Source: Acidimicrobiia bacterium (GTDB lineage Bacteria > Actinomycetota > Acidimicrobiia > Spongiisociales > ZC4RG35). From it: DNA of 64,000 nucleotides. A program made the position numbers and the translations under genes. Of the stretch, positions 8,437 to 36,409 are shown piece by piece (the first letter of the stretch is position 1; each line of letters starts with the position of its first letter). The stretch is from contig CBDBCY010000004.1 of NCBI GenBank assembly GCA_965203555.1, forward strand, positions 2,880,001-2,944,000. The letters run 5' to 3'. Below the pieces are notes generated by a model. The model searched no databases and had not been told where the DNA came from. It worked only from the letters and a program-made list of their open reading frames with translations.

Positions 8437-10479
8437 TTGACAAAGTCACTTGTCCTTGCGTTTTGCCTTGCAACGATATCCATGCCTTTTCATGGTTCTT
8501 TCGGCCAGGCGGTTGAAATCACTTCCCAGACGGTGCAAAGTGATGAACGGCAACTCTCAGATCGAGGCAATGGGGTGTGGGAAGCCGTCATGACAGTGGG
8601 AAACGACGGAGGTTTTCTCGGGTACGTCGAGCTTCTGGCGGGTTTCCTGACCGACAGCGAATTTTCATGGCAGGGGGAGTCCTACACAGTGACGGGCATG
8701 GTTCTGGTTGAACGGGGAGGGGGCTCCACCGGCGGAGTGGACTCAGGATCCTACAATATCAGCCTCTACTTCTCGCCCGGTCTCCCGGACGGATTCGGCA
8801 GCCTGCGCCTTCAGATAGGCGATGTGGGACTCAATCTTGCGGACGGGAGAGTGGATTCGCGTCACTATTCGTGGGTTGGCGTGGACCTGGAATGGCGGCT
8901 CGGCCAGACGGTTCCCTTGAGCCTCAGGGAATACCCACCGCTCTTTGAGCCTCGTGCAATCGATGGACGAGGAAACCATCTGAATAACGTCACATGGGGC
9001 ATGGCACGCACGGGTCTTCTGAGGAAGGGTCCGAACTCCTATTCGGACGGCGTATCAACACCTCCTACCTCGCGGCCGAATCCCCGCACCGTTAGCAACA
9101 TGGTGTTTTCCCAAGAACGGCCCGTGTTCAATTCCCTGCAGGCCAGTGACATGGTCTGGCAGTGGGGACAATTCGTGGACCACGACATCAGCCTGAGTCC
9201 AACCAACATGCAAGAACCTTTCCCAATTGCAGTTCCGCAATGGGATCGAGTCTTCGATCCCGACGGAACCGGCAAGGCCTCCATCCCCCTTGATCGTTCT
9301 GTATTCGATCCTGCAACCGGGACCGGTTCGCACAATCCCAGGCGACAGCTCAACGTGGTAACCGCCTTTCTGGACGGCTCGCAAGTGTACGGCTCGGATT
9401 GGCATCGGGCACACTCGCTCCGTGCCAATGACGGCACCGGAAAACTCAAGACATCACACCAGGGACAATTCCTGCCCTATAACGAAGACAAACTGGAGAA
9501 TGAAGGGGGCAGAAATCGGGAGGGCCTGTACGTCGCGGGTGATTTGCGAGTCAATGAGCAGGTAGGGCTTATCGCTATGCATACCCTGTTCGTGCGAGAG
9601 CACAACCGCCTTGCTGATCTTATCGCCGAACAGCATCCGGATCTAAGCGGAGAAGAGATATATCAGGCGGCTCGCAAAATGGTTGGCGCCTATATCCAAG
9701 CCATCACCTTCAACGAGTTTCTGCCTCTGCTGTTAGGTCCCGATGCTATAGGCCCGTACGCGGGATACGACCCGGACGTTGATCCGACTATTGCCAGCGA
9801 ATTCTCAGCAGCGGCATATCGAGTCGGACACACGTTGCTTTCTCCCGACCTTTCGATCCGGAGCCGTAGCGGAGAGACAGAAAAGATAAACCTTGCCGAA
9901 GCGTTCTTCAATCCTTCCCTTGTCAGAGATCGCGGTATCTCCGTGTTCCTACGAGGGCTAGCCGCTCAAAGGGCTCAGGAAGTGGATGCGAAGATGGTAG
10001 ACGAAGTCCGAAACCTGCTCCTGAGAGGACCGGAAGGTCCAACTTTCGATCTGGTGGCCCTCAACATCCAAAGAGGTCGTGATCACGGACTGGCTGATTT
10101 CAATACTGTGCGGGGCGCTTACGGCTTGGCGCCGCTCACCTCCTTTGCCGACCTGTCGTCCCAACTCCGTGTTCAGCACGCTCTCAGGCTGGCATACGGC
10201 GCCATTCACGAATTGGACCTCTGGCCGGGCGCATTGGCAGAAGATCCCTTACCCGGAGCGGCCGTCGGAGAGACCCTCCACACCATAATCCTGGACCAGT
10301 TCCGCCGGCTCCGTGACGGAGATCGGTTCTGGTTCGAGCATGACCCCTACTTCGTGACCAACCCCAAACTCCTGAAGGAAATTCGCACAACCACTCTGGC
10401 CGACATCATCCGTCGCAATACGCCCATCGCAGAAGAAATCTCTGACAACGTGTTCAAGGCCGTCTCGAACGTCGGCTAG
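8437..10479 (+). CDS. Secreted animal-type heme peroxidase (peroxidase-cyclooxygenase superfamily) with extra N-terminal beta-rich domain
   Basis: WGQFVDHD, TAFLDGSQVYG, AGD.RVNEQ, HTLFVREHNR, AYRVGHT, ALNIQRGRDHG, RLRDGDRFW motifs; N-terminal signal peptide; TTG start uncertain. Confidence 0.93.
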   Translation: MTKSLVLAFCLATISMPFHGSFGQAVEITSQTVQSDERQLSDRGNGVWEAVMTVGNDGGFLGYVELLAGFLTDSEFSWQGESYTVTGMVLVERGGGSTGGVDSGSYNISLYFSPGLPDGFGSLRLQIGDVGLNLADGRVDSRHYSWVGVDLEWRLGQTVPLSLREYPPLFEPRAIDGRGNHLNNVTWGMARTGLLRKGPNSYSDGVSTPPTSRPNPRTVSNMVFSQERPVFNSLQASDMVWQWGQFVDHDISLSPTNMQEPFPIAVPQWDRVFDPDGTGKASIPLDRSVFDPATGTGSHNPRRQLNVVTAFLDGSQVYGSDWHRAHSLRANDGTGKLKTSHQGQFLPYNEDKLENEGGRNREGLYVAGDLRVNEQVGLIAMHTLFVREHNRLADLIAEQHPDLSGEEIYQAARKMVGAYIQAITFNEFLPLLLGPDAIGPYAGYDPDVDPTIASEFSAAAYRVGHTLLSPDLSIRSRSGETEKINLAEAFFNPSLVRDRGISVFLRGLAAQRAQEVDAKMVDEVRNLLLRGPEGPTFDLVALNIQRGRDHGLADFNTVRGAYGLAPLTSFADLSSQLRVQHALRLAYGAIHELDLWPGALAEDPLPGAAVGETLHTIILDQFRRLRDGDRFWFEHDPYFVTNPKLLKEIRTTTLADIIRRNTPIAEEISDNVFKAVSNVG

Positions 10480-10627
10480 GACAGGCTAGGAGGCTGCTGA
10501 GTATTTCTGATCGTTCGTTGGGTGGCTGTGTGAGGTGGATTCGCTTTGCTTTTGTGTTTTCAGGGTTGGAGTTGATGAAAGATCAAGGTTTTAGGGGCGA
10601 ATAGTCAGGGGTTTTTCGCGAGTTGGC

Positions 10628-12031
10628 TCACAGCAGCACGGCGGCCACCATCAAAAAACCCCCGAATCCCACCACGTCGGTGATCAGGGTCAGGAAGATG
10701 CTGGAGGCGAGGGCCGGGTCGAATCCCAGCCTGCGAAGCGCCACGGGAATGCCGGTTCCGGCCAGGGTGGCGATGGCCAGGTTGGCCAGAGCCGCCACGC
10801 CCACCACGGGCGCCACCTTCGAGGCGCCGAAATTGGATGAAAACACGTCCAGTGACAAAAGCGCCACGGTGAGGACCATGGCGGCCACCGCCAGGAAGGC
10901 GCCGTTCAGCAGTCCGATCCCCAGTTGGCGTCTGAGCACCGCCCAAATCCGGGCCCGGGGAAGGTCGCCGATCGCCATGGAGCGGATCACCACCGCCAGG
11001 CTCTGCACGCCTCCGTTGCCGCCCAGAAGCGCCACGACCGGCATCAGCGCCGCCAGCACCGGCTCAGCCGAGATGACCCCGGTCTGCCGCTCGATCACGA
11101 ACGCCACGAGCAGGGCCAACAGCAAATTGAGGCTGAGCCAGGGAAGGCGCATCCGCACCGAGGCGAGCACGCCGGTGTGGATGGTCTCCTCAGCGCCGGC
11201 GCCCACCGAGGCGGCAAAGTCCTCCGACGCCTCCGCCTGCACGGCGTCGATCACCTCGTCATAGGTCACCATCCCCTGCAGATGCCCCAGATCGTCCACC
11301 ACCGGCAGCCCCACCAGCCGGTAGCGCTGCATCAGTTCCGAGACCTCTTCGCGGTCGGCGGTGAGATGAACGGCCACCGGACTGGCTTCCATAGCCTCGT
11401 CCATTCCCACCGAGGGTCGCACGAACACCAGGTCCCGGAAGGAGACCACCCCGCGCAGTACCCCGAAGTCATCGGTGATGTAGACGTAGGTGAGGTCCTC
11501 CACCGTTTCCCGGATGGTGCGTATCCGTTCGATGGCCTCTCCGGCGGTCAGCCCCACCGGCAGGACCGCCACGTCAGTGGTCATGAGACCGCCGGCAGTG
11601 TCCGGCGGGTAGCGGAACAACTTGCTGACTTCGGTGCCGGACGGGTCTCCCATCAGGTCGATCAGGGCGGACACCGTCTCGGTCGGCATCTTCTCCAAGA
11701 TGTCCACCGCTTCCTCTGACGGCATCTCCTCCAGAACCGAGGCGGCTTCCAGCGACGGCAGTTCTTCCAGCAGGGTGGCGGCCAGTTCGTCGCGAAGTTC
11801 TTCCAGCACCGAGGCGCTGTGCTGGCGGTCGAGCAGGCTTAGAAGCTCCCCGGCTGTCTCCGCAGAGACCGATTCCAAGATGTCCGCCACGTCATGGGGA
11901 GATGCCTGGGCCAGGGCTATCCACATCTCAGTGTTGGCGCCCAGGTACTCCTCGACTTCGGTGGGGCGAAGGCGGGCGGCGCGCCGCAGGCGCTGGGCCA
12001 GTTCTCGGGGACGACGCGGTCTAAGTCTCAT
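10628..12031 (-). CDS. mgtE: Magnesium transporter MgtE
   Basis: Acidic N-domain, YPPDTAGGLMT, CBS pair, RLPWL, GGNGG.Q, DPALAS, TDVVG. Confidence 0.95.
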   Translation of the reverse strand: MRLRPRRPRELAQRLRRAARLRPTEVEEYLGANTEMWIALAQASPHDVADILESVSAETAGELLSLLDRQHSASVLEELRDELAATLLEELPSLEAASVLEEMPSEEAVDILEKMPTETVSALIDLMGDPSGTEVSKLFRYPPDTAGGLMTTDVAVLPVGLTAGEAIERIRTIRETVEDLTYVYITDDFGVLRGVVSFRDLVFVRPSVGMDEAMEASPVAVHLTADREEVSELMQRYRLVGLPVVDDLGHLQGMVTYDEVIDAVQAEASEDFAASVGAGAEETIHTGVLASVRMRLPWLSLNLLLALLVAFVIERQTGVISAEPVLAALMPVVALLGGNGGVQSLAVVIRSMAIGDLPRARIWAVLRRQLGIGLLNGAFLAVAAMVLTVALLSLDVFSSNFGASKVAPVVGVAALANLAIATLAGTGIPVALRRLGFDPALASSIFLTLITDVVGFGGFLMVAAVLL

Positions 12032-13776: not shown

Positions 13777-14970
13777 TTAGTGCAGGACCGCCTGCAGGCC
13801 GGGCCTGAATTTCTCCGGTTCGAGCAAAAAGGCGTCGTGTCCCTTGTCGGAGTGGACGGTATGCCACAGCACCGGCACCCCCACTGCGTTGAGTTGCCTG
13901 ACCATATATTCCTGCTCGTCGGGATAGAAACATACGTCCGAGTCGATGGTGAACACCATCCACTGCTGGTTGCGGCAGCGGCTCAACACCTCCGCGATGT
14001 TCTGCCCGCCGACTTCTCGGAGCAGATCGAACTTCTGCCAGACCCGGACCACCCGCAGATAGGTGTTGGCGTCGAATCGTTCTATGAACTTTTGTCCCTG
14101 GTGCAGCATGTAGGACTCCATGGGATGCTGTACCCGGAATCCGGCCAGGTATTCGCGGTGAATGATCTCTTTGCGGATGCGCTCCCGAAAGGCGGACAGG
14201 GAGACAAAGGTCTTGTGGCCGATCATCCGGGCCAGCGCCAGTCCCAGGTCGGGCGCAGGGCCGTCGTAGAAGTCGCCGCCCCGGAAATGGGGGTCGGCGA
14301 TGATGGCGAACATCTGCTCGAAATTGTGGATCACCTGCAGGGTGGTCACCCCCAGACCCGCGGCGATGGGAATTACCACCTTCACCCGGTCCGGATAGCG
14401 TGTTCCCATCACCAACGCCATCAGGCCGCCCACCGAGCCTCCGGTGCAGGCGTGGATCCGCTCGATGCCGAGCTTGTCCAACAGTTGCACCTGGGAGTCG
14501 ACGATGTCGGTGATGGTGAGGTTGGGGAAAGCCGATCCGTACGGCCGGCCGGTGGCGGGGTTGATCGAAGACGGGCCGGTGGAACCGTAGCACCCGCCCA
14601 GATAGTTGACGCACATGACGGCATACCGGTCGGTGTCGAGAGCCAGTCCGGGTCCGATGAATCCCTCCCACCAGCCCACCTGCATCTCTTCGGTCCACTT
14701 CCCGCCCACCCCCGGCACCGACTCGGTGAATCCATGGGCATGCTGGCTTCCGGTGAGAGCGTGGAACACCAGGATGACATTGTCCCGGGTTTCGTTGAGT
14801 TCTCCGTACATCTCGTAGGCGAGGGTCACTTGGGGGATCTTCTTGCCGCTCAGAGTGGTGAAGGGACCGTCCAGTTGCACGAACCGGGTCTCGGTGCGGG
14901 GCAGGTTCGCATGTGCGTCTTCGGCGGGTGGGCGGGGGGCGCTGATTGTCACCGACTCTCCTTTACTCAT
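13777..14970 (-). CDS. metX: Homoserine O-acetyltransferase
   Basis: HALTG, GWW..FIGPG..LDT, GGCYGSTGP, GGSVGG, RFDANTY, GHDAFL motifs. Confidence 0.93.
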   Translation of the reverse strand: MSKGESVTISAPRPPAEDAHANLPRTETRFVQLDGPFTTLSGKKIPQVTLAYEMYGELNETRDNVILVFHALTGSQHAHGFTESVPGVGGKWTEEMQVGWWEGFIGPGLALDTDRYAVMCVNYLGGCYGSTGPSSINPATGRPYGSAFPNLTITDIVDSQVQLLDKLGIERIHACTGGSVGGLMALVMGTRYPDRVKVVIPIAAGLGVTTLQVIHNFEQMFAIIADPHFRGGDFYDGPAPDLGLALARMIGHKTFVSLSAFRERIRKEIIHREYLAGFRVQHPMESYMLHQGQKFIERFDANTYLRVVRVWQKFDLLREVGGQNIAEVLSRCRNQQWMVFTIDSDVCFYPDEQEYMVRQLNAVGVPVLWHTVHSDKGHDAFLLEPEKFRPGLQAVLH

Positions 14971-15053
14971 CGGTCAGGCGTTGGCACCGTGCCGGGGATC
15001 CGACCGGTTGCCGCGGTTTCGCGGGGCCTGATCCCTCCACCGCTCTGGATGAG
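14966..15053 (-). ncRNA. SAM-I-type riboswitch lacking P4
   Basis: CTCATCCAGAG-CGGTGGAGGGATCAGGCCC-CGCGAAACCG-CGGCAACC...GGTGCCAACGCCTG-ACC-GATGAG matches the SAM-I core; directly upstream of metX. Confidence 0.88.
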
Positions 15054-15076
15054 CGTCTGGTGACGCTACCGGACCC

Positions 15077-15105
15077 ATTTTGGCAGAAGTCTTCGTGAAA
15101 TTCAA
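15077..15105 (-). promoter_or_regulatory. Putative sigma70-type promoter for the riboswitch-metX transcript
   Basis: TTGAAT-17 nt-CAAAAT just upstream of the riboswitch. Confidence 0.5.
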
Positions 15106-15209
15106 CCCCAAGACTGGAAACCGAACCGGTCTGACAGCCTTACCCCGCAACTCGCGCAGGGAGTGGGCGCTTTCTCCCGCCCCGTGGACCAGGACCGCCC
15201 GGACCGGCC

Positions 15210-16334
15210 TTAGAACATTTGCGGCTGGTTGCTGACCCAGACGGTGTTTCCTTCGGGATCCTTCACGCCCGTCATATCGATCGGCAGGCCGCTTCGGCGA
15301 GCAGGCATGTTTATGACGGAAAGACCCTGGGCGGCCAGATAGGTCCTCCACCCACTCATGTCGTCGGCCCACAGCACGATGTCGGCGCCTCCGGTCGCGG
15401 GCGAGTCGGGATGGCTCTTGCGAAGGATCAGATAGGAGCCGCCGATCGCCATCCACACCTGTCCGCGGGTGGCCATGTGAGGAGCGGCGACTTCCTGCAG
15501 ACCCAGAGCCTTGCTGTAGAAGCGGGACATCCTCTCCAAGTCGTTGGCCCAAAGAATCATGTTCATTCCTCCCCGCGGACTGAGAGAGGGTATCTCCTGG
15601 CCGGCCATGACGGTTTGCTTGGCGTCGGCCAGGCTGAACCGGCCGACCGTGACCTCCCGGCCGACGATCACCCCGGCAAGCTTGCGGCCTTCCACCGCCA
15701 GCCGGCTCAGGGTCCGCAGGTCCTCCAGTGTCCCCACGCCGCCCGCCACGATCACCGGCTCGGGCACCAATTCCAGCGCCTCGGCGTAGATGTCCAGATC
15801 GAGCGGCTCGGTCAGCGGATTGCGCCCCGCTTCGGCCACCAGGAAAGCAGCCACTCCCGCCGAGGACATCTCCAGCATCACCTCCTCCAGGTACCGGCCG
15901 CTTCGTTCCGTGAAGCCCTGGGTGACGATCTCCTGGTCGGGCCGCACATCGATGGAGACCACGATCTTGTTCGGGTAATCCCGGCACAGATCCCAGATCA
16001 TGATCTGGTCTTCGATGGCGGCGGTCCCCATCACCACTCTCCAAGCGCCGTTTCTGAGCAGCCGTATCGCCTCGAGGTGGGAGCGTACCCCACCCGCCAC
16101 CTGCACGGGCGTATCGAGTTCGGCGATGATCTCATCGATCAGCGGGCGGTTCTGATAGTCGCCCAAAGCAGCGGCGTTGAGGTCGACCACATGAAGAAAA
16201 TCGGCGCCCTGCCGGGCCCAACTGCGGGCCCGGTTGAGGGGGTCGTTGTCCAAGATGATGGCTTCGGTGACATCCAGCGCCGGAAGACGGACCGATCTTC
16301 CTCCCAGAATGTTGATCCGACCGTAGACGTCCAT
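15210..16334 (-). CDS. HisA/HisF-like TIM-barrel protein fused to a C-terminal VOC/glyoxalase domain
   Basis: LHVVDLN, QVAGGVR, VVMGTAA, VSIDV, VIVAGGV motifs followed by DLERMSRFYSKALGL...VKDPEGN. Confidence 0.85.
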   Translation of the reverse strand: MDVYGRINILGGRSVRLPALDVTEAIILDNDPLNRARSWARQGADFLHVVDLNAAALGDYQNRPLIDEIIAELDTPVQVAGGVRSHLEAIRLLRNGAWRVVMGTAAIEDQIMIWDLCRDYPNKIVVSIDVRPDQEIVTQGFTERSGRYLEEVMLEMSSAGVAAFLVAEAGRNPLTEPLDLDIYAEALELVPEPVIVAGGVGTLEDLRTLSRLAVEGRKLAGVIVGREVTVGRFSLADAKQTVMAGQEIPSLSPRGGMNMILWANDLERMSRFYSKALGLQEVAAPHMATRGQVWMAIGGSYLILRKSHPDSPATGGADIVLWADDMSGWRTYLAAQGLSVINMPARRSGLPIDMTGVKDPEGNTVWVSNQPQMF

Positions 16335-16384
16335 CCGGTAAGGATACCTCCGCGTCAGCACCTCTGAGATCGGGCGCCAGGCTG

Positions 16385-18196
16385 TCAATCCGGCAAGGGA
16401 TCCAGTTGCAGGGTCTGTTCGGCGGCTTCCAGCGTCTGGTCTCCGTCGAGCGCCGGAAGGAACAGATCGCCGTAGCGGGACAGCCGGTCCCAGAGGTTGG
16501 CGATGTCAATATCGCCGTTGGCGAACTCCCCGACCTCTTCCCACAGCAGGGGCGCGGAAACCGGCGCCCCCGGAAGAGGCCGCACCGAGTAGACCGAGGA
16601 GACAGTCTGCCCGAAGGCGTTGCGGTTGTGGTCGATGAACACCTTCCCGGTTCGTTGGCGTTTGTCCCACGCCAGGGTCAGGTCGTCGGGATTGGCCGCA
16701 ACCAGCACCCGGGCGACCGCCGCCACGAATCGCCGCACTCGCCCGTAGCCGTGGATGGGCCGAAGCGGCAGGTAGACGTGCATGCCCCGGCTTCCCGACA
16801 GTTTGGGGACCGACCGCAGGCCCAACTGCTCAAGCGCCACTCCCAACAGTCGCACTCCTGCCACCACCTGCTCCCAGGAGGCCCCCGGGGCGGGATCGAA
16901 GTCGAACACCGCCCAGTCGGGGTGTCCCAGATCCGGATGGCGGGAGTGGAACGGATGCACCTCCACACACCCCATGTTGGCGAACCACAGCAGGGACTCC
17001 GGGTGGTCTGCGCACAGAAAGTCGATCTCCCCACCCATGGAGCGTGAACCAACCGGCAGGGTGCGCATCCACTCCGGATGATGACCGGGGGCTCGCTTCT
17101 CATAGAAGGAGGACCCCCCGATGCCGTCGGGAAAGCGTGACATGGACAGGGGCCGATCGCGCAGATGGGGGAGCAGGGTGGGGGCGACGGAGGCGTAGTA
17201 GCTGATCAGGTCTCCCTTCGTGTACCCGTCGGGGAAGAACGGCTTGGAGAGGTTGGAGAGGCTCACCGAACGCTTGGCCTCCCGGGGCCGGAACCGGTCG
17301 TCCATCGGTTCGACCCCGACCGGATCCGGGAAAGAGACCAGTCCCGAAGCCGCCTGGCGCCCCAGCCTTGGTGTCTTCTCCAGGCCGGCCACCACCGTGT
17401 GCAGCTCGGCGCCGATCTTCAGGTGGCTCTCCCACTCTCGGGCCTCGGAGATCACCACCATCGAGACACCCGACTCGCAGGCCGCTTCCACCAGTGGTCC
17501 GACGCGAAGGCTTCCCTCACCGTAGGGGACATGGCTGATCTCCCCGGCAGGTCCGAACCGGTTGTCGGTGAAGTGGGTGTGAAGCGGCGACAGCATCCAG
17601 GCGGGGAAGGAGTCCTTCAGAAAGGACAGCACTGTTTTGAACCGGTCCTTTCCGACCAGCCCACCTCCGGAGAGCGCGTGAAGGTGCGCCCAATCGATCA
17701 CCGGCCGCACGAACGGGAACTCCGAGGCCAACAGAGCGATGTCGCCCAGGGTCCCGAATGCGCCTTGGCGCCCGGCGGTTTCAAGGCCCAGCCCCACGCC
17801 CAGGTTTGCCACCTTGGGCGCCAGTGCGTCCAGGCGGCTTCGGATCAGGTCCATCACCTGCCCTGGGGCCCGACCCTTCAAGTGACCGGCGTGGGCGACG
17901 ATCAGGGGAGCGCGCAACTCCTGCCCCAGTTTCAGGGTGTGTTCCAGGGCAGACAGGCACATGCGGGACTTGTCGGGCTCCTCGGTGGTGAGAACCGCGA
18001 AGTAGGGAGCGTGAACCGAAATCCGGAAGTCCCGCTCCGCGGCGTGGGCGCCAAACTGTGCGCAGCGAACCTCCTTCCAGGGAAATCCTTTCACGAAGGA
18101 GAGTTCATAGGACCCTATGCCCTGTGAAGACAGGTCGTCGAAGAATTCCCGGTCCTCGGCGCCCTCCGGCGGCGGGGGACCGGAGACGCCGAACAT
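16385..18196 (-). CDS. Fusion of endonuclease IV-like (AP endonuclease family 2) TIM barrel and LigD-type primase-polymerase domain
   Basis: N-terminal SVHAPY, AHAG, LETAG, IDWAH, HTHF, GE..H, ISE; C-terminal LSNL.K.FFP..YTKGDL..YY, RFPDG, FYEK, FDFDP, SGSRGMH, FIDHNRN; start MFGVSGPP inferred. Confidence 0.9.
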   Translation of the reverse strand: MFGVSGPPPPEGAEDREFFDDLSSQGIGSYELSFVKGFPWKEVRCAQFGAHAAERDFRISVHAPYFAVLTTEEPDKSRMCLSALEHTLKLGQELRAPLIVAHAGHLKGRAPGQVMDLIRSRLDALAPKVANLGVGLGLETAGRQGAFGTLGDIALLASEFPFVRPVIDWAHLHALSGGGLVGKDRFKTVLSFLKDSFPAWMLSPLHTHFTDNRFGPAGEISHVPYGEGSLRVGPLVEAACESGVSMVVISEAREWESHLKIGAELHTVVAGLEKTPRLGRQAASGLVSFPDPVGVEPMDDRFRPREAKRSVSLSNLSKPFFPDGYTKGDLISYYASVAPTLLPHLRDRPLSMSRFPDGIGGSSFYEKRAPGHHPEWMRTLPVGSRSMGGEIDFLCADHPESLLWFANMGCVEVHPFHSRHPDLGHPDWAVFDFDPAPGASWEQVVAGVRLLGVALEQLGLRSVPKLSGSRGMHVYLPLRPIHGYGRVRRFVAAVARVLVAANPDDLTLAWDKRQRTGKVFIDHNRNAFGQTVSSVYSVRPLPGAPVSAPLLWEEVGEFANGDIDIANLWDRLSRYGDLFLPALDGDQTLEAAEQTLQLDPLPD

Positions 18197-18395
18197 GATC
18201 GGTGGCTGACCGAGGTCAGCGGCGGGGGGAGGTCGGTTCGGCACTCCGACTAATGATGGTCGCGGTGGGCGTGAAAGTGGCCCATGCGACCAAGTCCGCC
18301 GCCTGAAGTCAGACAAAACGCTGCTCCACAGGGTGGAATCGTTATATTTGGACGGCGGGTCATTCCCGGCCCGTCCAAGCAAGGAAGGAGCAGCA

Positions 18396-18587
18396 ATGGA
18401 AACCCTAGCCATTGTGTTGGCGGCGATCGGCGCTATCAACTGGGGATTAATCGGCTTGTTCGGTTTTGACCTGGTAGCGACCATCACCACCGCCGGAAAG
18501 TTCGGCGACACCAACATAATCTCTCGAATTATCTACGTGATCGTCGGTATCGCCGGCGTGATCGCTTTGATTGGTGCCTTCGGCTAA
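18396..18587 (+). CDS. DUF378 family small membrane protein
   Basis: IGAINWGLIGLFGFDLVA and SRIIYVIVGIAG; strong RBS (aaggag). Confidence 0.9.
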   Translation: METLAIVLAAIGAINWGLIGLFGFDLVATITTAGKFGDTNIISRIIYVIVGIAGVIALIGAFG

Positions 18588-18783
18588 TAGCCAGCACTTC
18601 GACAATTCACCTTTTGTAGGCGGCTGCCCCATGGTGTCGACTTCCCACCGGGAGTCGGGGCCATGGGGCAGCCCGCGTCCCGGGCGCCTGCAGTGAATCG
18701 AGCCAAGGCGGTTACCTCCCATCTCGAAAGGATTCCGCACATGCCGGTAACCTCCCTGGGGTGGCAATCGGGTCGAATTCCTG

Positions 18784-19671
18784 GTGACTAGAAGAATCCT
18801 GTTCGGGATCTGTACCGACCAGGCGGCGCCGTACCAGGTGTTGGTGGACCGGTGGCGGTATTTCGAGGAACTGGGGTTCGACAGCGTCTGGGACTGTGAT
18901 CATTTCCTCCGGCCTTCCGATCCCTCGGGTCCCTACTTTGAAGGATGGACGCTGCTGGCTGCGTTGGCGACGCAAACCTCTCGGATTCGGGTGGGGGTGC
19001 TGGTCGGAAGCAATACCTTCCGTCATCCGGCGTTGTTGGCGCACCAAGCCATCACCATCGACCACATCTCGGAGGGACGCCTGGAGTTGGGATTCGGCGC
19101 GGGGTGGTTCGTGGAGGAGCACGAGCGCTTCGGCATACCGTTCGGCGAGCCCCGGGTGCTGGTGGACAGGTTCGAGGAGGCGGTGGAGATCATCGACGCC
19201 CTGCTCCGAGGAGAGACCACCACCTACGACGGTCGGCATTACCAGCTGGAGGAGGCCCGCCTGCGCCCCCGGCCGGTTCAGTTGCCCCGACCCCCGTTCA
19301 CGCTGGGCGCCCACCGCCCCCGCATGCTGGCCATCTGCGCCCGGTACGCCGACCGCTGGAACTCGTTCGGCACCGTGGAGGAGATCGCCGGACGGAACCG
19401 CCTGCTCGACGAGGCATGTGAGAAGATCGGACGGAATCCCACCGAGATCATCCGGTCCTTCTACGGATGGGCGTCCAACATGGCCGCCCAGGGTTTGCCC
19501 GACGCCTGGGAGAGCGTGGACGCCTTCACCGAAGTGGTGGGAAGATACGCCGAAGCGGGTATCAACGAGTTCGTGTTCGATCAACCCCAGCCCGAGCAGT
19601 ACGCCACGGCCGAGAGGATTGTCTCCGAGGTAGTCGAACCTGGTCTCCCGGCTGTTGAGGTGACGTGGTAG
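18784..19671 (+). CDS. LLM-class flavin/F420-dependent oxidoreductase
   Basis: GFDSVW..DH, EGWTLLAALA, FRHPALLA, DHISEGRLELG.GAGW. Confidence 0.9.
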   Translation: MTRRILFGICTDQAAPYQVLVDRWRYFEELGFDSVWDCDHFLRPSDPSGPYFEGWTLLAALATQTSRIRVGVLVGSNTFRHPALLAHQAITIDHISEGRLELGFGAGWFVEEHERFGIPFGEPRVLVDRFEEAVEIIDALLRGETTTYDGRHYQLEEARLRPRPVQLPRPPFTLGAHRPRMLAICARYADRWNSFGTVEEIAGRNRLLDEACEKIGRNPTEIIRSFYGWASNMAAQGLPDAWESVDAFTEVVGRYAEAGINEFVFDQPQPEQYATAERIVSEVVEPGLPAVEVTW

Positions 19672-20525
19672 CAGCGGGAGACATCGCCTTCGGGGTGGCC
19701 ACCGGTCAGACGATGCCATACCGTGTGCTGGTAGAGCGGTGGCGGTACTTCGAGGAACTGGGGTTCGACAGCATCTGGCACTTCGACCATCTCCTGCAGC
19801 CCTATGAACCGTCCCTTCCGTATTTCGAGGGGTGGACGCTTCTGGCGGCCCTGGCCGCTCGAACCAGCCGCGTCCGGGTGGGGCTGCTGGTGGCGAGCAA
19901 TACCTTCCGTCATCCGGCGCTCTTGGCTCAGCAGGCCATCACCCTGGATCACATCTCACAGGGACGCTTGGAGATGGGGATCGGCGCGGGGTGGTTCGTG
20001 GAGGAGCATGATCGGTTCGGGATCCCCCTCCATCAGCCGGGGGTGCGGGTGGACAGATTCGAGGAGGCTTTGAAGGTGATCGACCCCTTGCTGCGCGGGG
20101 AGACCGTTTCCCATCAGGGCCGTCACTATCAGCTCCGCGAGGCACGGCTCCGCCCCCGGCCGGTACAATCACCCCGCCCACCCCTGACCCTGGGCGCCCA
20201 CCGGCCCCGGATGCTGGGGATCTGCGCGCGCTACGCGGACCGATGGAACTCCACAGGAACGGTGGAGCAGATGGCCGAACGGAACCGCCGACTGGACGAG
20301 GCATGCCGGAGGATCGGCCGTGATCCGGCCGAGATAACCCGTTCCGTCCTCGCCGGGAACACCAATCTGGACTCCCAGGGTCTGCCGGACGCATGGTCGA
20401 GTATCGACGCGTTCAACGAAGTGGTGGGAAGATACGCCGAGGCGGGTATCAACGAGTTGATCTTCGAACCGCCCCGACCCGAGCGGTTCTCCACGGCCGA
20501 GAAGATTATGGCGGAGGTGAGATAA
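19665..20525 (+). CDS. LLM-class flavin/F420-dependent oxidoreductase (tandem paralog)
   Basis: Same motifs; long near-identical stretches with the upstream gene. Confidence 0.9.
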   Translation: MVAAGDIAFGVATGQTMPYRVLVERWRYFEELGFDSIWHFDHLLQPYEPSLPYFEGWTLLAALAARTSRVRVGLLVASNTFRHPALLAQQAITLDHISQGRLEMGIGAGWFVEEHDRFGIPLHQPGVRVDRFEEALKVIDPLLRGETVSHQGRHYQLREARLRPRPVQSPRPPLTLGAHRPRMLGICARYADRWNSTGTVEQMAERNRRLDEACRRIGRDPAEITRSVLAGNTNLDSQGLPDAWSSIDAFNEVVGRYAEAGINELIFEPPRPERFSTAEKIMAEVR

Positions 20526-21974: not shown

Positions 21975-24344
21975 TTATTGGTTTGGGGTCATGCGGTAGC
22001 CGGTCCGGTGTTCGGTGTGAATGTGGGTGGGGTTGGTGGCGTTGTCGCCCAGTTTGCGGCGGAGGCTGCTGATCACGGTTCGCATTGGTCTGAGGTCCCT
22101 GTTCTTTTGTTGGCCCCAGACTCGTTTCAGGAGTTGTTCGTAGGTTATGACGTGACCGGCATTTTGTGACAGTTCGGCCAGGAGGCGGTACTCGATGGCG
22201 GTTAGTTGGACTGGTCGGCCTGCGAGAGTGACTCGGCGGCGGGTGTAGTCGATGGTCAGGTCACCTACGTTGTACGGCTTGGCCGGTTCGTGTGTGGCTT
22301 CTTTGCGTAGGGCGGCTCTGATCCTGGCGGCTAGCTCGGTAGGTGAGAACGGTTTGACGATGTAGTCGACTGCTCCCATGTCGAAAGCCTTGGCGATTAT
22401 GTCTTCTTGGCCGTACACGGACAGGAAGATGATCGGCATGTCGGTTGTTTTGAGGATGTCTTTCATCAGGGCGATTCCGTCCGTGCCGGGGAGCATCAGG
22501 TCTAACAGGACCAGTTGCGGATGGTTTGTTTCGACCAGGTGCTGTGCTTTGGTCGGATCGCCGGTCACGATCGGTTTGTATCCCTCTTTGGTTAGTACGT
22601 TGCGCACGTACCGAAGCGCTTGGGGGTCGTCATCTACCACCAGTATTGGCTGGTCGTCTTGTGAGCGGCTGGTGGAGGAGTGGGATGGGTCGGCGGGTGT
22701 GCCGGTTGTGACCTGTTCGGCTATCGGGATCGTGAAAGTGAACCGAGTGCCCGTTCCGGGACCGTCGCTCTCGGCCCAGATGCGACCCCCGTGAGCCTCG
22801 ACGATCCCTTTGCAGATCGCCAGGCCCATGCCCGGCCCCCGCAGCAGGTTTTCGTGGTTATCGGTTCTCCAGTCGGGGAGTTTTCCGAACAGGTGAGGCA
22901 ATAGCTCGGGTGTCACGCCTTTGCCCCGGTCGGAGACGGACACCGCCACATGAAGACCGTCTCGGACCGCGGTTATCCGGATAACAGACGACTCGTCAGA
23001 AAACCGGGCGGCGTTGCCCAACAGGTTGCTGAGCACTTGAACAATGCGGCGCCTGTCCGCCATCACCATCGGCAGGCCCGGCGCCAGGTCGATACGCAAG
23101 TTGTCACCGTCCCCGCCGCTGAGGAAGGTGTTCTTTGCCTCTTCTACTATGGTGACCAAAACCTCAGGCTTGGGAGAGACTGAAAGAGTGCCGGTCTCGA
23201 CCCGTGCAAGATCCAAAAGATCACTTATCAGTTCCCGCATCCGGTCGGTCTGCGCATCGATGATCCGGTAAAACTGGACTGTCTCGGCCGGATCCAGAGA
23301 CGCCCCCAGCATGGTGGTAACAGATCCCTTGATGGACATAAGAGGCATCCTCAATTCGTGGCTCACCATCGCCAGGAACCCGGCCCGGAGCCGCTCCAAC
23401 TCCTCCACATCGGTCATATCCTGCAGCGTTACCACGAACGACTCGACCCCTCCGTCACCTGAACGGATGGGTGTGGCGTTCACCAAAACGGTGACACGCC
23501 GCCCGTCGGGAACCTGCATGACGATCTCCTCGGCCCGTACAGTCTCCCCGCCGCTCAACGTCTGCGCCAACGGCAACTCGTCGAAAGAGACTTCCCTCCC
23601 GTCCCCACGGCGAATCGTCATAACCTCCAAAAGCTGCTCCGGCGACTGACCCGGATCCCTGAGACGGTCAACGATTCTCCGGGTTTCCCGGTTAATCGAC
23701 ACCACCCCTCCCGACCGGCCGTCCAAGACCACGACCCCGACCGGCGAAGTGTTGATCAGAGTCTCCAGATCGGCCCTTGCCCGCTGCTCGTCCCTAAACG
23801 CCCGGGCGTTGGCTATCACCATCGCTGCCTGCGACGCGAACAACACCAAAGTCTCCTCGTCCTCCGACGTGAACCCCCGACCCCCCTCCTTCCGACCCAC
23901 GTAAATACCCCCCACCCGCGTCCCTTGATGAAACACCGGCGCGCCCAAAAGAGAAAAATCCGGATCGTTCCCCACCGGAGGAGGCAACCGAGGAAGACCC
24001 AAAGAACCCATATGCCCCACCAAATCCCGAATCCTCAAAGGCTCGGGAATACTCCCCAGATACTCGAAAAGTCGCATCCCATCCGGCATGTCCCACAACA
24101 ACTGCGCCTCCTCCACCGTCAAACCCGAAGAAAGAGAATCCCGCAGCCGCCCCGACCCCTCCAACAGCGTAATAACCCCATAACGAGCCCCGGTCAACGA
24201 CCGAGCAGAATCCAACACCCCCTGCAACACCGTGTCATAATCAAGACTTTCGTTGATCCGCAGACTGGCGTGCCTCAACCGCGACAAACGATCCCGAAGC
24301 GCCTCAACCTGCCCCCTCAAATCATCGACTCGCTCCACACTCAC
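21975..24344 (-). CDS. Hybrid one-protein two-component system: GAF-PAS-HisKA-HATPase-REC-OmpR winged helix
   Basis: GAF (FTSEDEE.L.LFA.QAA), PAS, VSHELR.PL, NLL.NA, G.GLAI.K.IVEAHGG, VVDDD, LLDLMLP, DYIVKPF, LT..EY.LL, LRRKL. Confidence 0.93.
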   Translation of the reverse strand: MSVERVDDLRGQVEALRDRLSRLRHASLRINESLDYDTVLQGVLDSARSLTGARYGVITLLEGSGRLRDSLSSGLTVEEAQLLWDMPDGMRLFEYLGSIPEPLRIRDLVGHMGSLGLPRLPPPVGNDPDFSLLGAPVFHQGTRVGGIYVGRKEGGRGFTSEDEETLVLFASQAAMVIANARAFRDEQRARADLETLINTSPVGVVVLDGRSGGVVSINRETRRIVDRLRDPGQSPEQLLEVMTIRRGDGREVSFDELPLAQTLSGGETVRAEEIVMQVPDGRRVTVLVNATPIRSGDGGVESFVVTLQDMTDVEELERLRAGFLAMVSHELRMPLMSIKGSVTTMLGASLDPAETVQFYRIIDAQTDRMRELISDLLDLARVETGTLSVSPKPEVLVTIVEEAKNTFLSGGDGDNLRIDLAPGLPMVMADRRRIVQVLSNLLGNAARFSDESSVIRITAVRDGLHVAVSVSDRGKGVTPELLPHLFGKLPDWRTDNHENLLRGPGMGLAICKGIVEAHGGRIWAESDGPGTGTRFTFTIPIAEQVTTGTPADPSHSSTSRSQDDQPILVVDDDPQALRYVRNVLTKEGYKPIVTGDPTKAQHLVETNHPQLVLLDLMLPGTDGIALMKDILKTTDMPIIFLSVYGQEDIIAKAFDMGAVDYIVKPFSPTELAARIRAALRKEATHEPAKPYNVGDLTIDYTRRRVTLAGRPVQLTAIEYRLLAELSQNAGHVITYEQLLKRVWGQQKNRDLRPMRTVISSLRRKLGDNATNPTHIHTEHRTGYRMTPNQ

Positions 24345-25338
24345 CTCACCTCAACACCACCGGACACGAACCAACCCGCACATCCTCACAAAAACCTGAC
24401 ACCAAACAAACCGGAATCAACACACCCCGACCGTTAACGACCCCCACTATACCAACAACCACTCCCCGCCCTCACAACAACTCACAGCATCAATCCCCCC
24501 CAGGCATCCCCGGGACGGCTCAACAGAACCAGATGGCTTCCAACATCACGCTCAAATGCTTCCTGTGATCCCAGGGGAACTTTCAGGGCGAGGGCTTACA
24601 GTCGGCCTAAACGGCGCAGAGAGAGCAGACCCCAAACGGGCGGTTGTTTCCCGGCCTTCCGCAGGCGATCCGCACGATCAGAACCGAAAGAGCCGCTCCC
24701 ACAGAGACATGCCGGTGTTGGCAGCGTCACAGTCCAGGCTTTACCTCCAGAAGTCGTGTCCGCCGTCGATCCGATCAGTCCGTCAGGCGCGGCTGACCGA
24801 CATTCATCCATCAGTATCTGCCAACAGACGCGACTACCGAACGCGGCGGGTGCACGCCGGACTGCGGCTGGTTTCAGCTGTGAATCGATGTCCTCGACGG
24901 CGAAGGGGACGGTTCCCCGCGGTTCGTTTCCACCATCCCCACGCCGATGCCGGTCAGGCGGCGGGCCCGGCAGGCGCCGCAGTTGTCGGTGTCCCCCGGC
25001 CCGACCCGGACCATCCCAGCCCGTACCAAGGGGGCGGAGCCCGCCGCAAAAGGGAACGAAAGACCCCACCCACAAACGCGCGGAGGTGCGCAGAGTATCA
25101 ATCCGGGCCGCTGCTCCTGACCCCCGCACACCCCGGTTTAGCCATGTCTCATAAGAACTCACACATTATTGCGCGAAAACCCACATCATGCTGATAAGTC
25201 CTGTTTCGGAGCCCCTTAAACCGCCACCCCTTTAGTTATGGTGATTAAACAACCGGTAGGAAGAAGCGGAATGCTGTGGGCAAGGCTTTTGGGAAAGGCT
25301 ACCCAAGACGAAACGCAGGTCTTGGTTGGACGAATCGC

Positions 25339-25351
25339 GGGGGGGGGGGGG
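25339..25351 (+). repeat. G13 homopolymer in the intergenic region upstream of the giant surface protein gene
   Basis: 13 consecutive G. Confidence 0.9.
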
Positions 25352-25753
25352 TCTTTTGGTGTGCTTCTCGGTGGTGGGGTCAGCAGGGCGCCAGGGTACA
25401 GATTGGGGACATCTTCCGAGAAGGGGCCGGCGGCAGCGGTAACAGGCGGTAAGGACACAACCGCGGACCCGCGCCTGCGGGCTGTCTTCGAACTGATCCT
25501 CCCTAAAACCAGTGACCGATCACCGACTTGTATGACCTGGCATACCGTCACCGTCGGGCATGGCATCGTGAACCCGCAGAAACAGACCACCTGCCGCATC
25601 CAGCGGATCTCTAGAAAAACTGCCGGACCCTCCAAAAACACTGTTCGACAGCAACGACAAGCCCCCCGCATCGCCAGCCATGCCGGCACCGGTCCGCAAC
25701 CGGGCCTCCGGTCAGTCACCCGGTCGCGTTCAAAGGCCAGCCGGGAAGTCCCC

Positions 25754-25787
25754 GGACCAAACCCAGCACCGGACCAAACCCAGCACC
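25754..25787 (+). repeat. 17-bp tandem direct repeat (ggaccaaacccagcacc x2)
   Basis: Two perfect adjacent copies ~90 bp upstream of the ATG at 25878. Confidence 0.9.
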
Positions 25788-25877
25788 ACTCGGGCACGAC
25801 GAAAGCACGTCGCTGTACGCGACAACGATGACCAAACAACAAACCCGCGAAAACACCAAAACCGAGAGGATCAAAAC

Positions 25878-32606: not shown

Positions 32607-32988
32607 GTCTGTGAAACCCTGACTCCCCTGCAGTCCTCTTTCTTGCGGGGGAGTCCCCTTCCCTCCCAAAAGTCCGAAGAAAAACCTGGGAAATCCGCCC
32701 TTCGCTGGGCTGACCCTGGGCATATTTGATGACGACCATCGAAATTCCACTCAATACGGCCCTGCGCGTTTTTTTGGGATTGGTGGTCTGGCTGGTGGGT
32801 GGTGGGGTTCATGTTAGGAGGAGTGCTCGGGCGGCGTAGTTGTGGGGGTTGGTGAAGCCGTGGGCGGTGCGTCGGAGGGTTTGATGCTCCTATGTTTGTC
32901 AAATTGGGGTTTGGGGGGTGGTGTGATGACGATCATCGAAAGTCCCCAGAGTCGATCATCGAAATTCCCCACCCTGGGTTGGGTGGTT

Positions 32989-36404: not shown

Positions 36405-36409
36405 TCGTC

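What the first reader, a model, noticed from the sequence alone, without database searches (positions are those of the whole stretch)
16385..18196. Endonuclease IV fused to a LigD-type PrimPol polymerase domain: candidate single-protein excision-repair module
Seen: one ~600-aa ORF joins a TIM barrel retaining EndoIV-type metal ligands (HAPY, H.G, ETAG, D.AH, H.H, E..H, ISE) to a complete LigD POL/AEP domain (DxD, SGSRGMH, FID..RN). The FGVSGPP start and GE..H motif look archaeal-like. There is no ligase, phosphoesterase or Ku in the window. Known: LigD is normally POL+PE+LIG working with Ku, and mycobacterial Prim-PolC/LigC acts in excision-repair gap filling alongside BER enzymes. Inference: this is a Rosetta-stone fusion that nicks at AP sites and fills the gap, possibly with ribonucleotides. 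I do not recognise it as a described architecture.
Basis: partly seen in the sequence, partly recalled or inferred. Interest (0 to 1): 0.8.

Follow-up and report, generated by a model that had tools for sequence, protein, structure and literature searches.

The report
Endonuclease IV-like domain fused to repair polymerase
One gene really does join a DNA-nicking, end-cleaning enzyme domain to a small gap-filling repair polymerase, and the fusion is conserved in many uncultured Acidimicrobiia, tying together two repair steps that are carried out by separate proteins in the mycobacterial and Bacillus systems studied so far.

Summary
Window 16385-18196 (-) is one intact ORF. It has an N-terminal AP_endonuc_2 TIM barrel (Pfam 1.9e-22) and a C-terminal LigD-type primase-polymerase (3.5e-83).

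It is not an assembly artefact. All 120 listed homologues have both domains. All 80 fetched genome loci, mostly Acidimicrobiia MAGs, encode it full length. A second actinobacterial lineage has the same two domains in reverse order.

The barrel is closest to archaeal-type endonuclease IV. By profile it matches MJ1311 and then solved EndoIVs, and its best TM-scores are to EndoIV. The window copy has eight of the nine EndoIV metal-ligand positions identical and a shifted Glu at the ninth. It fails the curated nfo model, and one His ligand is Gln in about half of the relatives.

The polymerase is most similar to mycobacterial Prim-PolC but lacks Loop 3, the feature that defines that subfamily.

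The window has no Ku, ligase or PE. One related locus has stand-alone LigD PE and ligase genes 3.3 kb upstream.

Most likely function: the barrel makes a 3'-OH (AP incision or 3'-unblocking), the polymerase fills the gap, and a separate ligase seals. Activity is untested.

Six text searches found no paper describing the fusion. Databases name it "NHEJ DNA ligase", although it has no ligase domain. A catalytically altered HisA-like/VOC gene is a conserved downstream neighbour.

The parts
16385..18196 (-).
   Evidence: open frame. (two Pfam domains). (same architecture in 120 of 120 listed homologues and 80 of 80 fetched loci).
18242..18244 (-). In-frame GTG, the probable true start codon (would give 619 aa)
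   Evidence: sequence; close homologues of 612-641 aa start 'MPNRP..', matching the window's residues after this GTG.
17372..18196 (-). N-terminal EndoIV-like (AP_endonuc_2) TIM barrel, residues 1-275. Candidate metal ligands are H62, H102, E139, D168, H171, H206, E219, H222 and E251. Y65 and F66 lie in the HAPYF motif.
   Evidence: Pfam. (profile against PDB: MJ1311 7.1e-16, EndoIV structures from 4.7e-15). (model pLDDT 94; TMq 0.68-0.76 to EndoIV). (conservation counts).
17270..17371 (-). Structured linker, residues 276-309, with conserved F289 and P290
   Evidence: conserved columns. (strands 294-298 and 301-304; block pLDDT 72-91; whole-protein pTM 0.88).
16388..17269 (-). C-terminal LigD-type primase-polymerase (AEP) domain, residues 310-603. 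Conserved residues are K318 and K327, the F364/Y365 wedge, H414, D432 and D434, S467 to H473, D522 and R525.
   Evidence: Pfam, NCBIfam. (residue alignments to Prim-PolC, Methanocella Pol, P. aeruginosa and M. tuberculosis LigD POL). (fold). (33 of 33 invariant).
15210..16334 (-). Conserved downstream neighbour, 50 nt after the fusion's stop. It is a HisA/PriA-like TIM barrel fused to a VOC (glyoxalase/bleomycin-resistance) domain. Asn replaces the first catalytic Asp. Whether it belongs to the same functional unit is an open question.
   Evidence: Pfam His_biosynth 1.4e-44 plus Glyoxalase 3.8e-7. (same-strand next gene in 64 of 76 loci). (below all HisA cut-offs). (Asn aligned to the catalytic Asp of PriA/HisA structures, invariant).
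18333..18587 (+). Divergent upstream DUF378 gene. It bounds the fusion gene's 5' end and is not part of the system.
   Evidence: Pfam DUF378, 5.2e-18.

Best explanation
The gene encodes a two-domain DNA-repair enzyme.

The N-terminal barrel is an archaeal-type endonuclease IV-like metal-dependent phosphodiesterase. It would produce a clean 3'-OH in damaged DNA, either by cutting 5' of an abasic site or by removing 3'-blocking groups (3'-phosphate, 3'-phosphoglycolate, 3'-unsaturated aldehyde).

The C-terminal domain is a LigD-type primase-polymerase. It would anchor on the downstream 5'-phosphate and extend that 3'-OH across a short gap.

Sealing, and any removal of a 5'-deoxyribose-phosphate, is left to separately encoded proteins. 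In at least one related genome the ligase is a stand-alone LigD-type ligase.

What is shown: the architecture, its conservation, the fold, and retention of catalytic and ligand positions. What is inferred: both enzymatic activities, their coupling, the substrate (AP site or blocked end), the nucleotide preference and the ligase partner.
For: 1. The fusion is real and under selection.
- 120 of 120 listed homologues carry PF01261 plus PF21686 at 512-659 aa.
- 80 of 80 fetched loci encode it as one tblastn segment covering at least residues 17-594, at 59-85% identity. These 80 were kept from 205 relatives confirmed among 232 pattern matches.
- A second lineage, P0246 (600 aa), has the order Pol then TIM. 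Its cluster includes three full-length 600-aa members, each with an NCBI accession, from Actinomycetota MAGs. Identity to the window is 39% (Pol) and 40% (TIM).
- The barrels of both fusion orders fall in one group of 25 rows with SH-aLRT 100.

2. The barrel is EndoIV-like.
- A family profile finds MJ1311 at 7.1e-16 and solved EndoIVs from 4.7e-15. UvdE scores 1.2e-3 and sugar epimerases 0.23.
- MJ1311 and PAE3257 are listed as the archaeal EndoIV homologues. PF0258, an archaeal Nfo homologue only about 13% identical to E. coli Nfo, is an active AP endonuclease that needs H70, H110 and E261 (PMC2770678, passages).
- The window keeps the matching H62, H102 and E251. H62, Y65, H102, E139, D168, H171, H222 and E251 are invariant in 68 of 68 sequences that include the archaeal stand-alone relatives.
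- The model has pLDDT 94. TMq is 0.68-0.76 to EndoIV structures and 0.58-0.70 to sugar epimerases.

3. The polymerase is intact.
- It passes the ligD_pol cut-off.
- Its DxD, SGSRGxH and FIDHNRN motifs align with the catalytic motifs of solved LigD POLs and Prim-PolC and are invariant in 33 of 33.

4. The full-length model has pLDDT 89 and pTM 0.88 with a structured linker, which suggests a fixed two-domain arrangement.

5. The functional link is already published.
- EndoIV co-purifies with LigC and was the best end-processing nuclease for Prim-PolC/LigC1 repair in vitro (PMC5663958, passages).
- B. subtilis LigD acts with the spore AP endonuclease (PMC4770248, abstract and passages).

6. Locus L028 has LigD PE (209.5 bits, cut-off 144) and LigD ligase (283.9 bits, cut-off 227.75) genes 3.3 kb upstream on the same strand.
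Against: - No activity has been measured for any member.
- The barrel scores only 19.9-22.8 bits on the curated nfo model, whose cut-off is 129.65.
- The position aligned to EndoIV's sixth ligand (H206) is Gln in 15 of 33 fusion proteins, and all 15 also have Gln at 208. The family may therefore not keep a canonical three-metal site.
- The Asp ligand before the last His is replaced by a Glu displaced by one position (alignment).
- Foldseek E-values do not separate EndoIV from sugar epimerases (both about 2e-12).
- The AP_endonuc_2 superfamily also holds enzymes that do not act on DNA. Archaeal relatives give weak CbiR phosphodiesterase hits of 19.6-40.5 bits against a cut-off of 105.
- Repair-gene neighbours are rare. 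PE and ligase lie within 10 kb in 1 of 80 loci, and Ku in 0 of 80.
- After AP incision a 5'-dRP would remain, and no dRP lyase is evident.
Confidence: 0.6

Rival explanations
1. The protein is the POL module of a disaggregated LigD. It works in Ku-dependent end joining of double-strand breaks. The EndoIV-like domain adds a second 3'-end-cleaning activity beside, or instead of, the PE domain. It is not a base-excision enzyme. This overlaps mechanistically with the best explanation and differs in the pathway and substrate.
For: - The polymerase passes the LigD POL equivalog-domain cut-off.
- It lacks the Prim-PolC-specific Loop 3. Its C-terminus aligns end to end with the NHEJ polymerases of Methanocella and M. 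tuberculosis. TMt is 0.83-0.89 to those, against 0.80-0.82 to Prim-PolC.
- L028 carries LigD-type PE and LigD-type ligase genes, rather than a LigC-type ligase, 3.3 kb upstream on the same strand.
Against: - Ku was found in 0 of 80 loci and not in the window.
- PE and ligase were found near the fusion in only 1 of 80 loci.
- By sequence the polymerase is closer to Prim-PolC (198 bits) than to M. tuberculosis LigD POL (130 bits).
- Where PE is present (L028), a second 3'-healing domain would be partly redundant.
- Whole genomes could not be searched for Ku.
Confidence: 0.22
2. The barrel is not a DNA enzyme. It could be a sugar or sugar-phosphate isomerase or epimerase, or a small-molecule phosphodiesterase such as CbiR. 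The fusion, together with the HisA-like/VOC neighbour, would then serve some nucleotide or sugar-phosphate metabolism.
For: - Pfam names the family 'xylose isomerase-like TIM barrel'.
- Foldseek E-values for epimerases equal those for EndoIV.
- Stand-alone relatives give weak CbiR hits.
- The conserved neighbour belongs to a phosphoribosyl-isomerase family.
- H206 and H208 are not conserved in the fusion family.
Against: - The family profile matches EndoIV at about 1e-15 and epimerases at 0.23.
- TM-scores favour EndoIV.
- The HAPY(F/Y) motif with its Tyr is invariant. That the matching Tyr contacts DNA in E. coli EndoIV is recalled, not tested.
- The fusion partner is a DNA polymerase, in either order.
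- The window barrel itself gives no CbiR hit at E<=1e-3.
Confidence: 0.08
3. The fusion is an artefact: a missed stop codon, a frameshift or a chimeric assembly joining two neighbouring genes.
For: Some cluster members are split or truncated. P0382 and P0383 (345 and 255 aa) and P0244 (374 aa) look like frameshifted copies.
Against: - The frame is open in the window.
- The same continuous frame occurs in 80 of 80 independent genome loci, several of them complete chromosomes, and in 120 of 120 listed homologues.
- The linker is conserved and predicted to be structured.
Confidence: 0.01

Closest known systems
Mycobacterial Prim-PolC / LigC excision-repair complex with EndoIV (PMC5663958; PMC7442782; PDB 5OP0, 6SA0)
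   Same: The polymerase domain's best solved relative is Prim-PolC (198 bits, 36-38% identity). The hydrophobic wedge (F364/Y365 for I73/Y74) and the K-R that follow it are kept. EndoIV is the published best end-processor for that pathway.
   Different: - Here EndoIV-like and polymerase are one polypeptide.
- Loop 3 (Prim-PolC 313-333), which defines the short-gap subfamily, is absent.
- No LigC-type ligase is adjacent.
- The barrel is of the archaeal type, not canonical bacterial Nfo.
Canonical bacterial LigD (POL + PE + LIG) with Ku: M. tuberculosis, P. aeruginosa
   Same: It has the same POL family, above the curated ligD_pol cut-off, with the same catalytic motifs. The logic is also the same: a 3'-end-healing nuclease joined to a polymerase.
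   Different: - There is no ligase or PE domain in the protein.
- No Ku was found in the window or in 80 loci.
- The nuclease partner is a TIM-barrel EndoIV-like domain, not the PE fold.
- The database name 'non-homologous end-joining DNA ligase' is therefore a misnomer.
Endonuclease IV / Nfo family, in particular archaeal homologues (P. furiosus PF0258 = PfuAPE; M. jannaschii MJ1311, PDB 3WQO; P. aerophilum PAE3257)
   Same: It has the TIM-barrel fold and the HAPY, (A/F)H, LE(T), DxxH, E..H and SE motifs. The best profile hit is MJ1311. The nearest stand-alone relatives, at 26-34% identity, include archaeal proteins named deoxyribonuclease IV.
   Different: - It falls below the curated nfo score.
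- Glu replaces Asp at one ligand.
- The sixth ligand is variable (His or Gln) among fusion proteins.
- It is fused to a polymerase.
- MJ1311 itself has no activity reported in the text I saw.
B. subtilis LigD acting with the spore AP endonuclease Nfo (PMC4770248)
   Same: A LigD-type polymerase cooperates with an EndoIV-family AP endonuclease in repair of abasic damage.
   Different: The proteins are separate there. The 5'-dRP lyase sits in the ligase domain, and this fusion has no ligase domain.

Membership tests
LigD-type primase-polymerase (AEP; Pfam LigD_Prim-Pol, NCBIfam ligD_pol) | Scores above the curated family cut-offs over the whole domain | tested here: met
   Pfam 279.5 bits (cut-off 27.4), profile 1-254 of 254. 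TIGR02778 227.8 bits (cut-off 214.7).
LigD-type primase-polymerase (AEP; Pfam LigD_Prim-Pol, NCBIfam ligD_pol) | Catalytic acidic triad (DxD ... D) and the SGxxGxH nucleotide-binding motif | tested here: met
   D432, D434, D522 and S467-H473 align with the same motifs of 2IRU, 2FAO, 5DMU and 5OP0. They are invariant in 33 of 33. The roles of these residues are recalled from the LigD POL literature.
Prim-PolC subfamily (short-gap excision-repair Prim-Pols) | C-terminal Loop 3 (Prim-PolC residues 313-333, with the P320/N321 pin), said to define the subfamily (PMC7442782) | tested here: not met
   The alignment to 5OP0 ends at query 271 / chain 275. The window protein has 32 residues left, and the 331-residue chain has 56. 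The C-terminus aligns end to end with the Loop-3-less polymerases 5DMU and 2IRU. TMt is 0.80-0.82 to Prim-PolC and 0.83-0.89 to the others. The chain numbering may be off by a few residues.
Prim-PolC subfamily (short-gap excision-repair Prim-Pols) | Operon association with a LigC-type ligase | tested here: not met
   No ligase in the window. One of 80 loci has a ligase within 10 kb, and it passes the LigD-ligase model rather than PRK08224, which scores 135 against a cut-off of 296. That PRK08224 stands for LigC is my assumption.
DNA ligase D proper | ATP-dependent ligase domain, usually with a PE domain, and a Ku partner | tested here: not met
   The protein has only two Pfam domains. No protein longer than 607 aa appears among the best 150 barrel representatives. 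None above 1057 aa was found, which is weak evidence. No Ku in the window or in 80 loci.
Endonuclease IV (Nfo) | Curated family score (TIGR00587 nfo and the PRK01060 equivalogs) | tested here: not met
   19.9 and 22.8 bits against a cut-off of 129.65. Archaeal stand-alone relatives also fall below it, at 33-53.5 bits.
Endonuclease IV (Nfo) | Nine metal-ligand residues (E. coli H69, H109, E145, D179, H182, H216, D229, H231, E261; numbering recalled, 'nine residues' confirmed in PMC2770678) | tested here: inconclusive
   The window has H62, H102, E139, D168, H171, H206, H222 and E251 at the aligned positions, and E219 one position off the Asp (alignments). Across the fusion family, H206 is Gln in 15 of 33. 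Geometry could not be measured because no model coordinates were available.
Endonuclease IV (Nfo) | TIM-barrel fold closest to EndoIV | tested here: met
   TMq 0.68-0.76 to EndoIV and Apn1 structures, against 0.58-0.70 to sugar epimerases. The profile scores about 1e-15 to EndoIV and 0.23 to epimerases.
Endonuclease IV (Nfo) | AP-endonuclease or 3'-diesterase activity on DNA | not testable with these tools
   Needs biochemistry.
HisA/PriA (for the downstream neighbour) | Curated HisA score and both catalytic aspartates | tested here: not met
   153.5 bits against a cut-off of 228.95. The first catalytic Asp position holds Asn in alignments to three PriA/HisA structures. This Asn is at least 98% conserved in 67 sequences and is N8 in 30 of 30. 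That this Asp is the general base is recalled.

The most novel reading that the evidence does not exclude
The fusion and its conserved neighbour form a three-part excision-repair cassette of a kind not described. The archaeal-type EndoIV domain nicks at the lesion. The Prim-Pol fills the gap. The HisA-derived barrel keeps both phosphate-binding GG motifs but carries Asn for the catalytic Asp, and is fused to a bleomycin-resistance-type VOC domain. It would bind or process the leftover sugar-phosphate (5'-dRP or oxidised abasic residue), giving a new solution to the dRP-removal step. In this reading the EndoIV domain also takes over the upstream-duplex grip that Loop 3 provides in Prim-PolC.
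Probability: 0.07. Interest if true: 0.8.

Novelty: new variant of a known kind. Interest (0 to 1): 0.55.

Why it matters
A conserved natural fusion, found in both domain orders, of an EndoIV-like domain with a LigD-type primase-polymerase is independent genomic ("Rosetta stone") evidence. It suggests that these small polymerases work directly downstream of AP-site or 3'-end processing, not only in Ku-dependent end joining. That idea so far rests mainly on the mycobacterial and Bacillus work I read.

It gives a compact, testable protein for studying how incision is handed to gap filling. It shows that an archaeal-type EndoIV clade has been recruited in Actinomycetota. It also exposes a systematic misannotation: these proteins are named "NHEJ DNA ligase" or "LigD" but have no ligase domain.

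If the HisA-like/VOC neighbour proves to be part of the unit, a new enzymatic step would be involved.

Tried and rejected
- **Complex prediction.** Complex prediction of the fusion (A1) with the HisA-like/VOC neighbour (A3) gave no verdict (score 0.00, mark 0.32). This is evidence neither for nor against binding.
- **Larger fused forms.** A search for proteins above 1057 aa with this barrel found none, which is weak evidence.
- **Anti-phage defence.** PADLOC gave 0 hits for the fusion, the neighbour and P0246.
- **Promoters and terminators.** The scan of 14800-18700 found nothing above the shuffle expectation and no terminator between the two genes.
- **Fold search.** The Foldseek E-value ranking did not discriminate EndoIV from epimerases, so TM-scores and the sequence profile were used instead.
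- **Single-sequence PDB search.** It found no barrel hit at E<=0.01. A family profile was needed.
- **Literature on the fusion.** Text searches gave no paper describing it: 1 paper; 0; 9; 20, from listings only; 4; 0. 'Find' look-ups in PMC10140301 and PMC4538821 found no mention.
  - Fetching the context of the stand-alone barrel P0242 or of the reverse-order P0246.
  - The metagenome and viral contig collections, which were closed.
  - Paper supplements, which were closed. Supplementary Fig. 1 of PMC5663958, on classes of Prim-Pols and ligases, might tabulate such architectures.
  - Measuring the metal-site geometry in the models.
Full report
**What is there**

On the minus strand, 16385-18196 is an uninterrupted frame of 603 codons.
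- Pfam finds a complete LigD primase-polymerase domain (3.5e-83, profile 1-254 of 254) behind an AP_endonuc_2 "xylose isomerase-like" TIM barrel (1.9e-22).
- NCBIfam places the polymerase above the curated ligD_pol cut-off (227.8 against 214.7). The barrel gets only 19.9-22.8 bits on the nfo model, whose cut-off is 129.65.
- The mechanical ORF extends to 18517, but that part overlaps a DUF378 gene on the other strand (18333-18587).
The protein is therefore probably 619 aa.

**The fusion is real and conserved**
- In the 5.8-billion-protein set, 1403 of the 8000 scored candidates had E<=0.001. All 120 listed carry both Pfam domains at 512-659 aa.
- A scan of one genome per GTDB species gave 232 pattern matches, of which 205 were confirmed. 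All 80 loci kept encode the whole protein in one tblastn segment at 59-85% identity.
- By the submitters' labels, 66 of the 80 are Actinomycetota (57 Acidimicrobiia), 9 are "Acidobacteriota", 1 is Pseudomonadota and 4 are unlabelled. All are MAGs.
- The automatic names are "non-homologous end-joining DNA ligase" or "LigD", although there is no ligase domain.

**A second domain order**

An exhaustive search with the barrel alone found 648 proteins at E<=1e-3. No protein among the best 150 exceeds 607 aa.
- One cluster, P0246 (600 aa), has the opposite order: Prim-Pol at 30-281 and barrel at 347-581.
- Its three full-length 600-aa members, each with an NCBI accession, come from Actinomycetota MAGs.
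- It is 39% (Pol) and 40% (barrel) identical to the window protein.

I built a quick maximum-likelihood tree of 128 barrel segments. I had hand-picked 136 stored proteins of at least 240 aa, and the 128 with at least 200 matched positions were used.
- Both fusion orders fall in one group of 25 rows (SH-aLRT 100), together with 11 apparently stand-alone rows.
- Of those 11, at least three look incomplete: P0144 and P0145 are named "partial" by NCBI, and P0244 looks frameshifted.
- One, P0242 (279 aa), looks complete.

**What the barrel is**

Its nearest stand-alone relatives are 264-290 aa proteins at 26-34% identity.
- Where named, they come from Pyrobaculum ("deoxyribonuclease IV"), Diapherotrites, Micrarchaeota and Aenigmatarchaeota.
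- Negativicutes and Methylomirabilales also appear.

A profile of 68 such sequences hits the following in the PDB:

| PDB match | E-value |
|---|---|
| MJ1311 (3WQO) | 7.1e-16 |
| Solved endonucleases IV and Apn1 | 4.7e-15 to 3.9e-5 |
| UvdE | 1.2e-3 |
| Tagatose epimerase | 0.23 |

Kiyonari et al. (PMC2770678; passages read) make four relevant points:
- They list MJ1311 and PAE3257 as the archaeal EndoIV homologues.
- Archaeal Nfo homologues are only about 13% identical to E. coli Nfo.
- PF0258 is an active AP endonuclease that depends on H70, H110 and E261.
- The paralogue PF1383, which lacks those residues, is inactive.

The window domain keeps the corresponding H62, H102 and E251.

The AlphaFold model of the domain is confident (pLDDT 94.0, pTM 0.90). 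Foldseek E-values do not separate EndoIV from sugar epimerases. TM-scores do: 0.68-0.76 for EndoIV and Apn1 structures against 0.58-0.70 for epimerases.

From the HMMER alignments, eight of EndoIV's nine ligand positions are identical in the window. The ninth, an Asp, is replaced by E219, displaced by one residue.

Two cautions apply:
- H206, aligned with EndoIV's sixth ligand, is Gln in 15 of 33 fusion proteins. All 15 also have Gln at 208.
- Archaeal relatives give weak hits to the cobamide phosphodiesterase CbiR, a reminder that the superfamily is not restricted to DNA.

**What the polymerase is**

| Solved structure | Bits | Identity | TMt |
|---|---|---|---|
| M. smegmatis Prim-PolC | 198 | 36-38% | 0.80-0.82 |
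| Methanocella NHEJ polymerase | 174 | 31% | 0.89 |
| P. aeruginosa LigD POL | 139 | 30% | 0.88 |
| M. tuberculosis LigD POL | 130 | 31-32% | 0.83-0.87 |

- The DxD, SGSRGxH and FIDHNRN motifs, the two N-terminal lysines and the F/Y wedge align with their counterparts. They are invariant in 33 of 33 fusion proteins.
- Brissett et al. (PMC7442782; passages read) state that Loop 3 (residues 313-333) defines the short-gap Prim-PolC subfamily.
- The window protein ends about 32 residues after the last aligned position, where the 331-residue Prim-PolC chain has 56. Its C-terminus aligns end to end with the polymerases that lack Loop 3.
- It is therefore Prim-PolC-like in sequence but not a member by that criterion.

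**Whole protein**

The full-length model has pLDDT 89.0 and pTM 0.88 (the other four models have pLDDT 76-85). The linker is structured and conserved. This is compatible with a fixed arrangement of the two domains. No coordinates were available to inspect it.

**Context**

In the window, 54 other ORFs were scanned with Pfam. No Ku, ligase or PE was found.

Across the 80 loci I called 1039 ORFs. The caller was crude: at least 90 aa, with a GC3 filter. I clustered them into 298 groups and scanned one representative of each of the 297 non-fusion groups.
- Ku was never found.
- LigD PE and an ATP-dependent ligase were found only in L028. tblastn with those two proteins found no further copy in the other 79 loci or the window.
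- In L028 the PE gene (5092-5682; TIGR02777 209.5 against 144) overlaps the ligase gene (5679-6686; TIGR02779 283.9 against 227.75). The pair lies 3.3 kb upstream of the fusion on the same strand. At least that genome therefore has all three LigD modules as separate genes, with POL carried by the fusion.

The one conserved neighbour is unexpected.
- In 64 of the 76 loci that have a downstream ORF, the next gene on the same strand is a His_biosynth barrel fused to a VOC/glyoxalase domain. The median gap is 58 nt. Upstream neighbours vary.
- In the window this gene is 15210-16334, 50 nt after the fusion's stop.
- It scores below every HisA cut-off (153.5 against 228.95).
- The residue aligned with the first catalytic Asp of PriA/HisA structures is Asn. 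This is at least 98% conserved in 67 sequences and is N8 in 30 of 30. The second Asp is kept in the window copy and in the family consensus, and the GG motifs are invariant.
- Its function is unknown.

**Mechanism**

The best-supported reading has three steps:
1. The EndoIV-like domain creates a 3'-OH, by AP incision and/or removal of 3' blocks.
2. The attached Prim-Pol extends it across a short gap.
3. A separate ligase seals.

This matches published biology.
- EndoIV co-purifies with LigC and was the most effective end-processor for Prim-PolC/LigC1 repair in vitro (PMC5663958, passages).
- B. subtilis LigD cooperates with the spore AP endonuclease, and its dRP lyase resides in the ligase domain (PMC4770248, passages).

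Whether the pathway is excision or single-strand-break repair, or Ku-dependent end joining by a split LigD, cannot be decided here. Ribonucleotide preference is only a family-level expectation.

**Novelty**

Six text searches and look-ups in two relevant papers turned up no description of this architecture. For most of the papers listed I saw only titles and abstracts, and supplements were closed. The sequences themselves are public and automatically named. I rate it a new variant of a known kind: known domains and a known functional link, but a new and widespread covalent architecture that occurs in two orders.

Noticed in passing
window 15210-16334 (-); cluster 1 in 67 of 80 loci: A HisA/PriA-like barrel fused to a VOC (glyoxalase/bleomycin-resistance) domain lies directly downstream of the fusion in 64 of 76 loci. 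Asn replaces the first catalytic Asp throughout. The second Asp is kept in the window copy and the consensus, and the phosphate-binding GG motifs are invariant. It scores below all curated HisA cut-offs. The ESM Atlas shows two small Actinomycetota clusters with this architecture.
   Followed up: partly
L028 5092-6686 (+), fusion at 9983-11797: Stand-alone LigD 3'-phosphoesterase and LigD-type ligase genes overlap by 4 nt and lie 3.3 kb upstream of the fusion. This is the only one of the 80 loci with them.
   Followed up: yes
protein P0246 (no locus held): This is a reverse-order fusion (Prim-Pol then EndoIV-like barrel, 600 aa) in other Actinomycetota MAGs. Cluster members of 345 and 255 aa look like frameshifted copies.
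   Followed up: partly
homologues of the fusion in public databases: Proteins with this architecture are automatically named 'non-homologous end-joining DNA ligase' or 'bifunctional NHEJ protein LigD', although they have no ligase domain.
   Followed up: yes
window 8437-10479 (+): A 680-aa ORF gives a very strong match to animal haem peroxidase (Pfam 1.3e-155), with lower GC3 (0.62) than its neighbours.
   Followed up: no
window 24400-37800: This is a lower-GC stretch with strong AT skew. It holds a 2308-aa ORF with Calx-beta and fibronectin-III domains (25680-32606). It is followed by three kinds of transposase: an IS21-like pair (33771-35141 with IstB at 32989-33915), IS110 (35172-36620) and ISL3 (36817-37755). 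It is probably an acquired island.
   Followed up: no
window 18784-20525 (+): Two tandem luciferase-like monooxygenase paralogues lie next to the fusion gene's upstream region. The same family (cluster 4) recurs upstream in the closest related loci.
   Followed up: no
window 21975-24344 (-): One 789-aa protein combines GAF, PAS, a histidine kinase, a receiver and an OmpR-type DNA-binding domain.
   Followed up: no
window 39839-40888 (-) and 41997-42833 (-): An IrrE-like Peptidase_M78 protein and a Sir2-family protein lie about 22 kb from the fusion. A link to the DNA-damage response is possible but was not examined.
   Followed up: no
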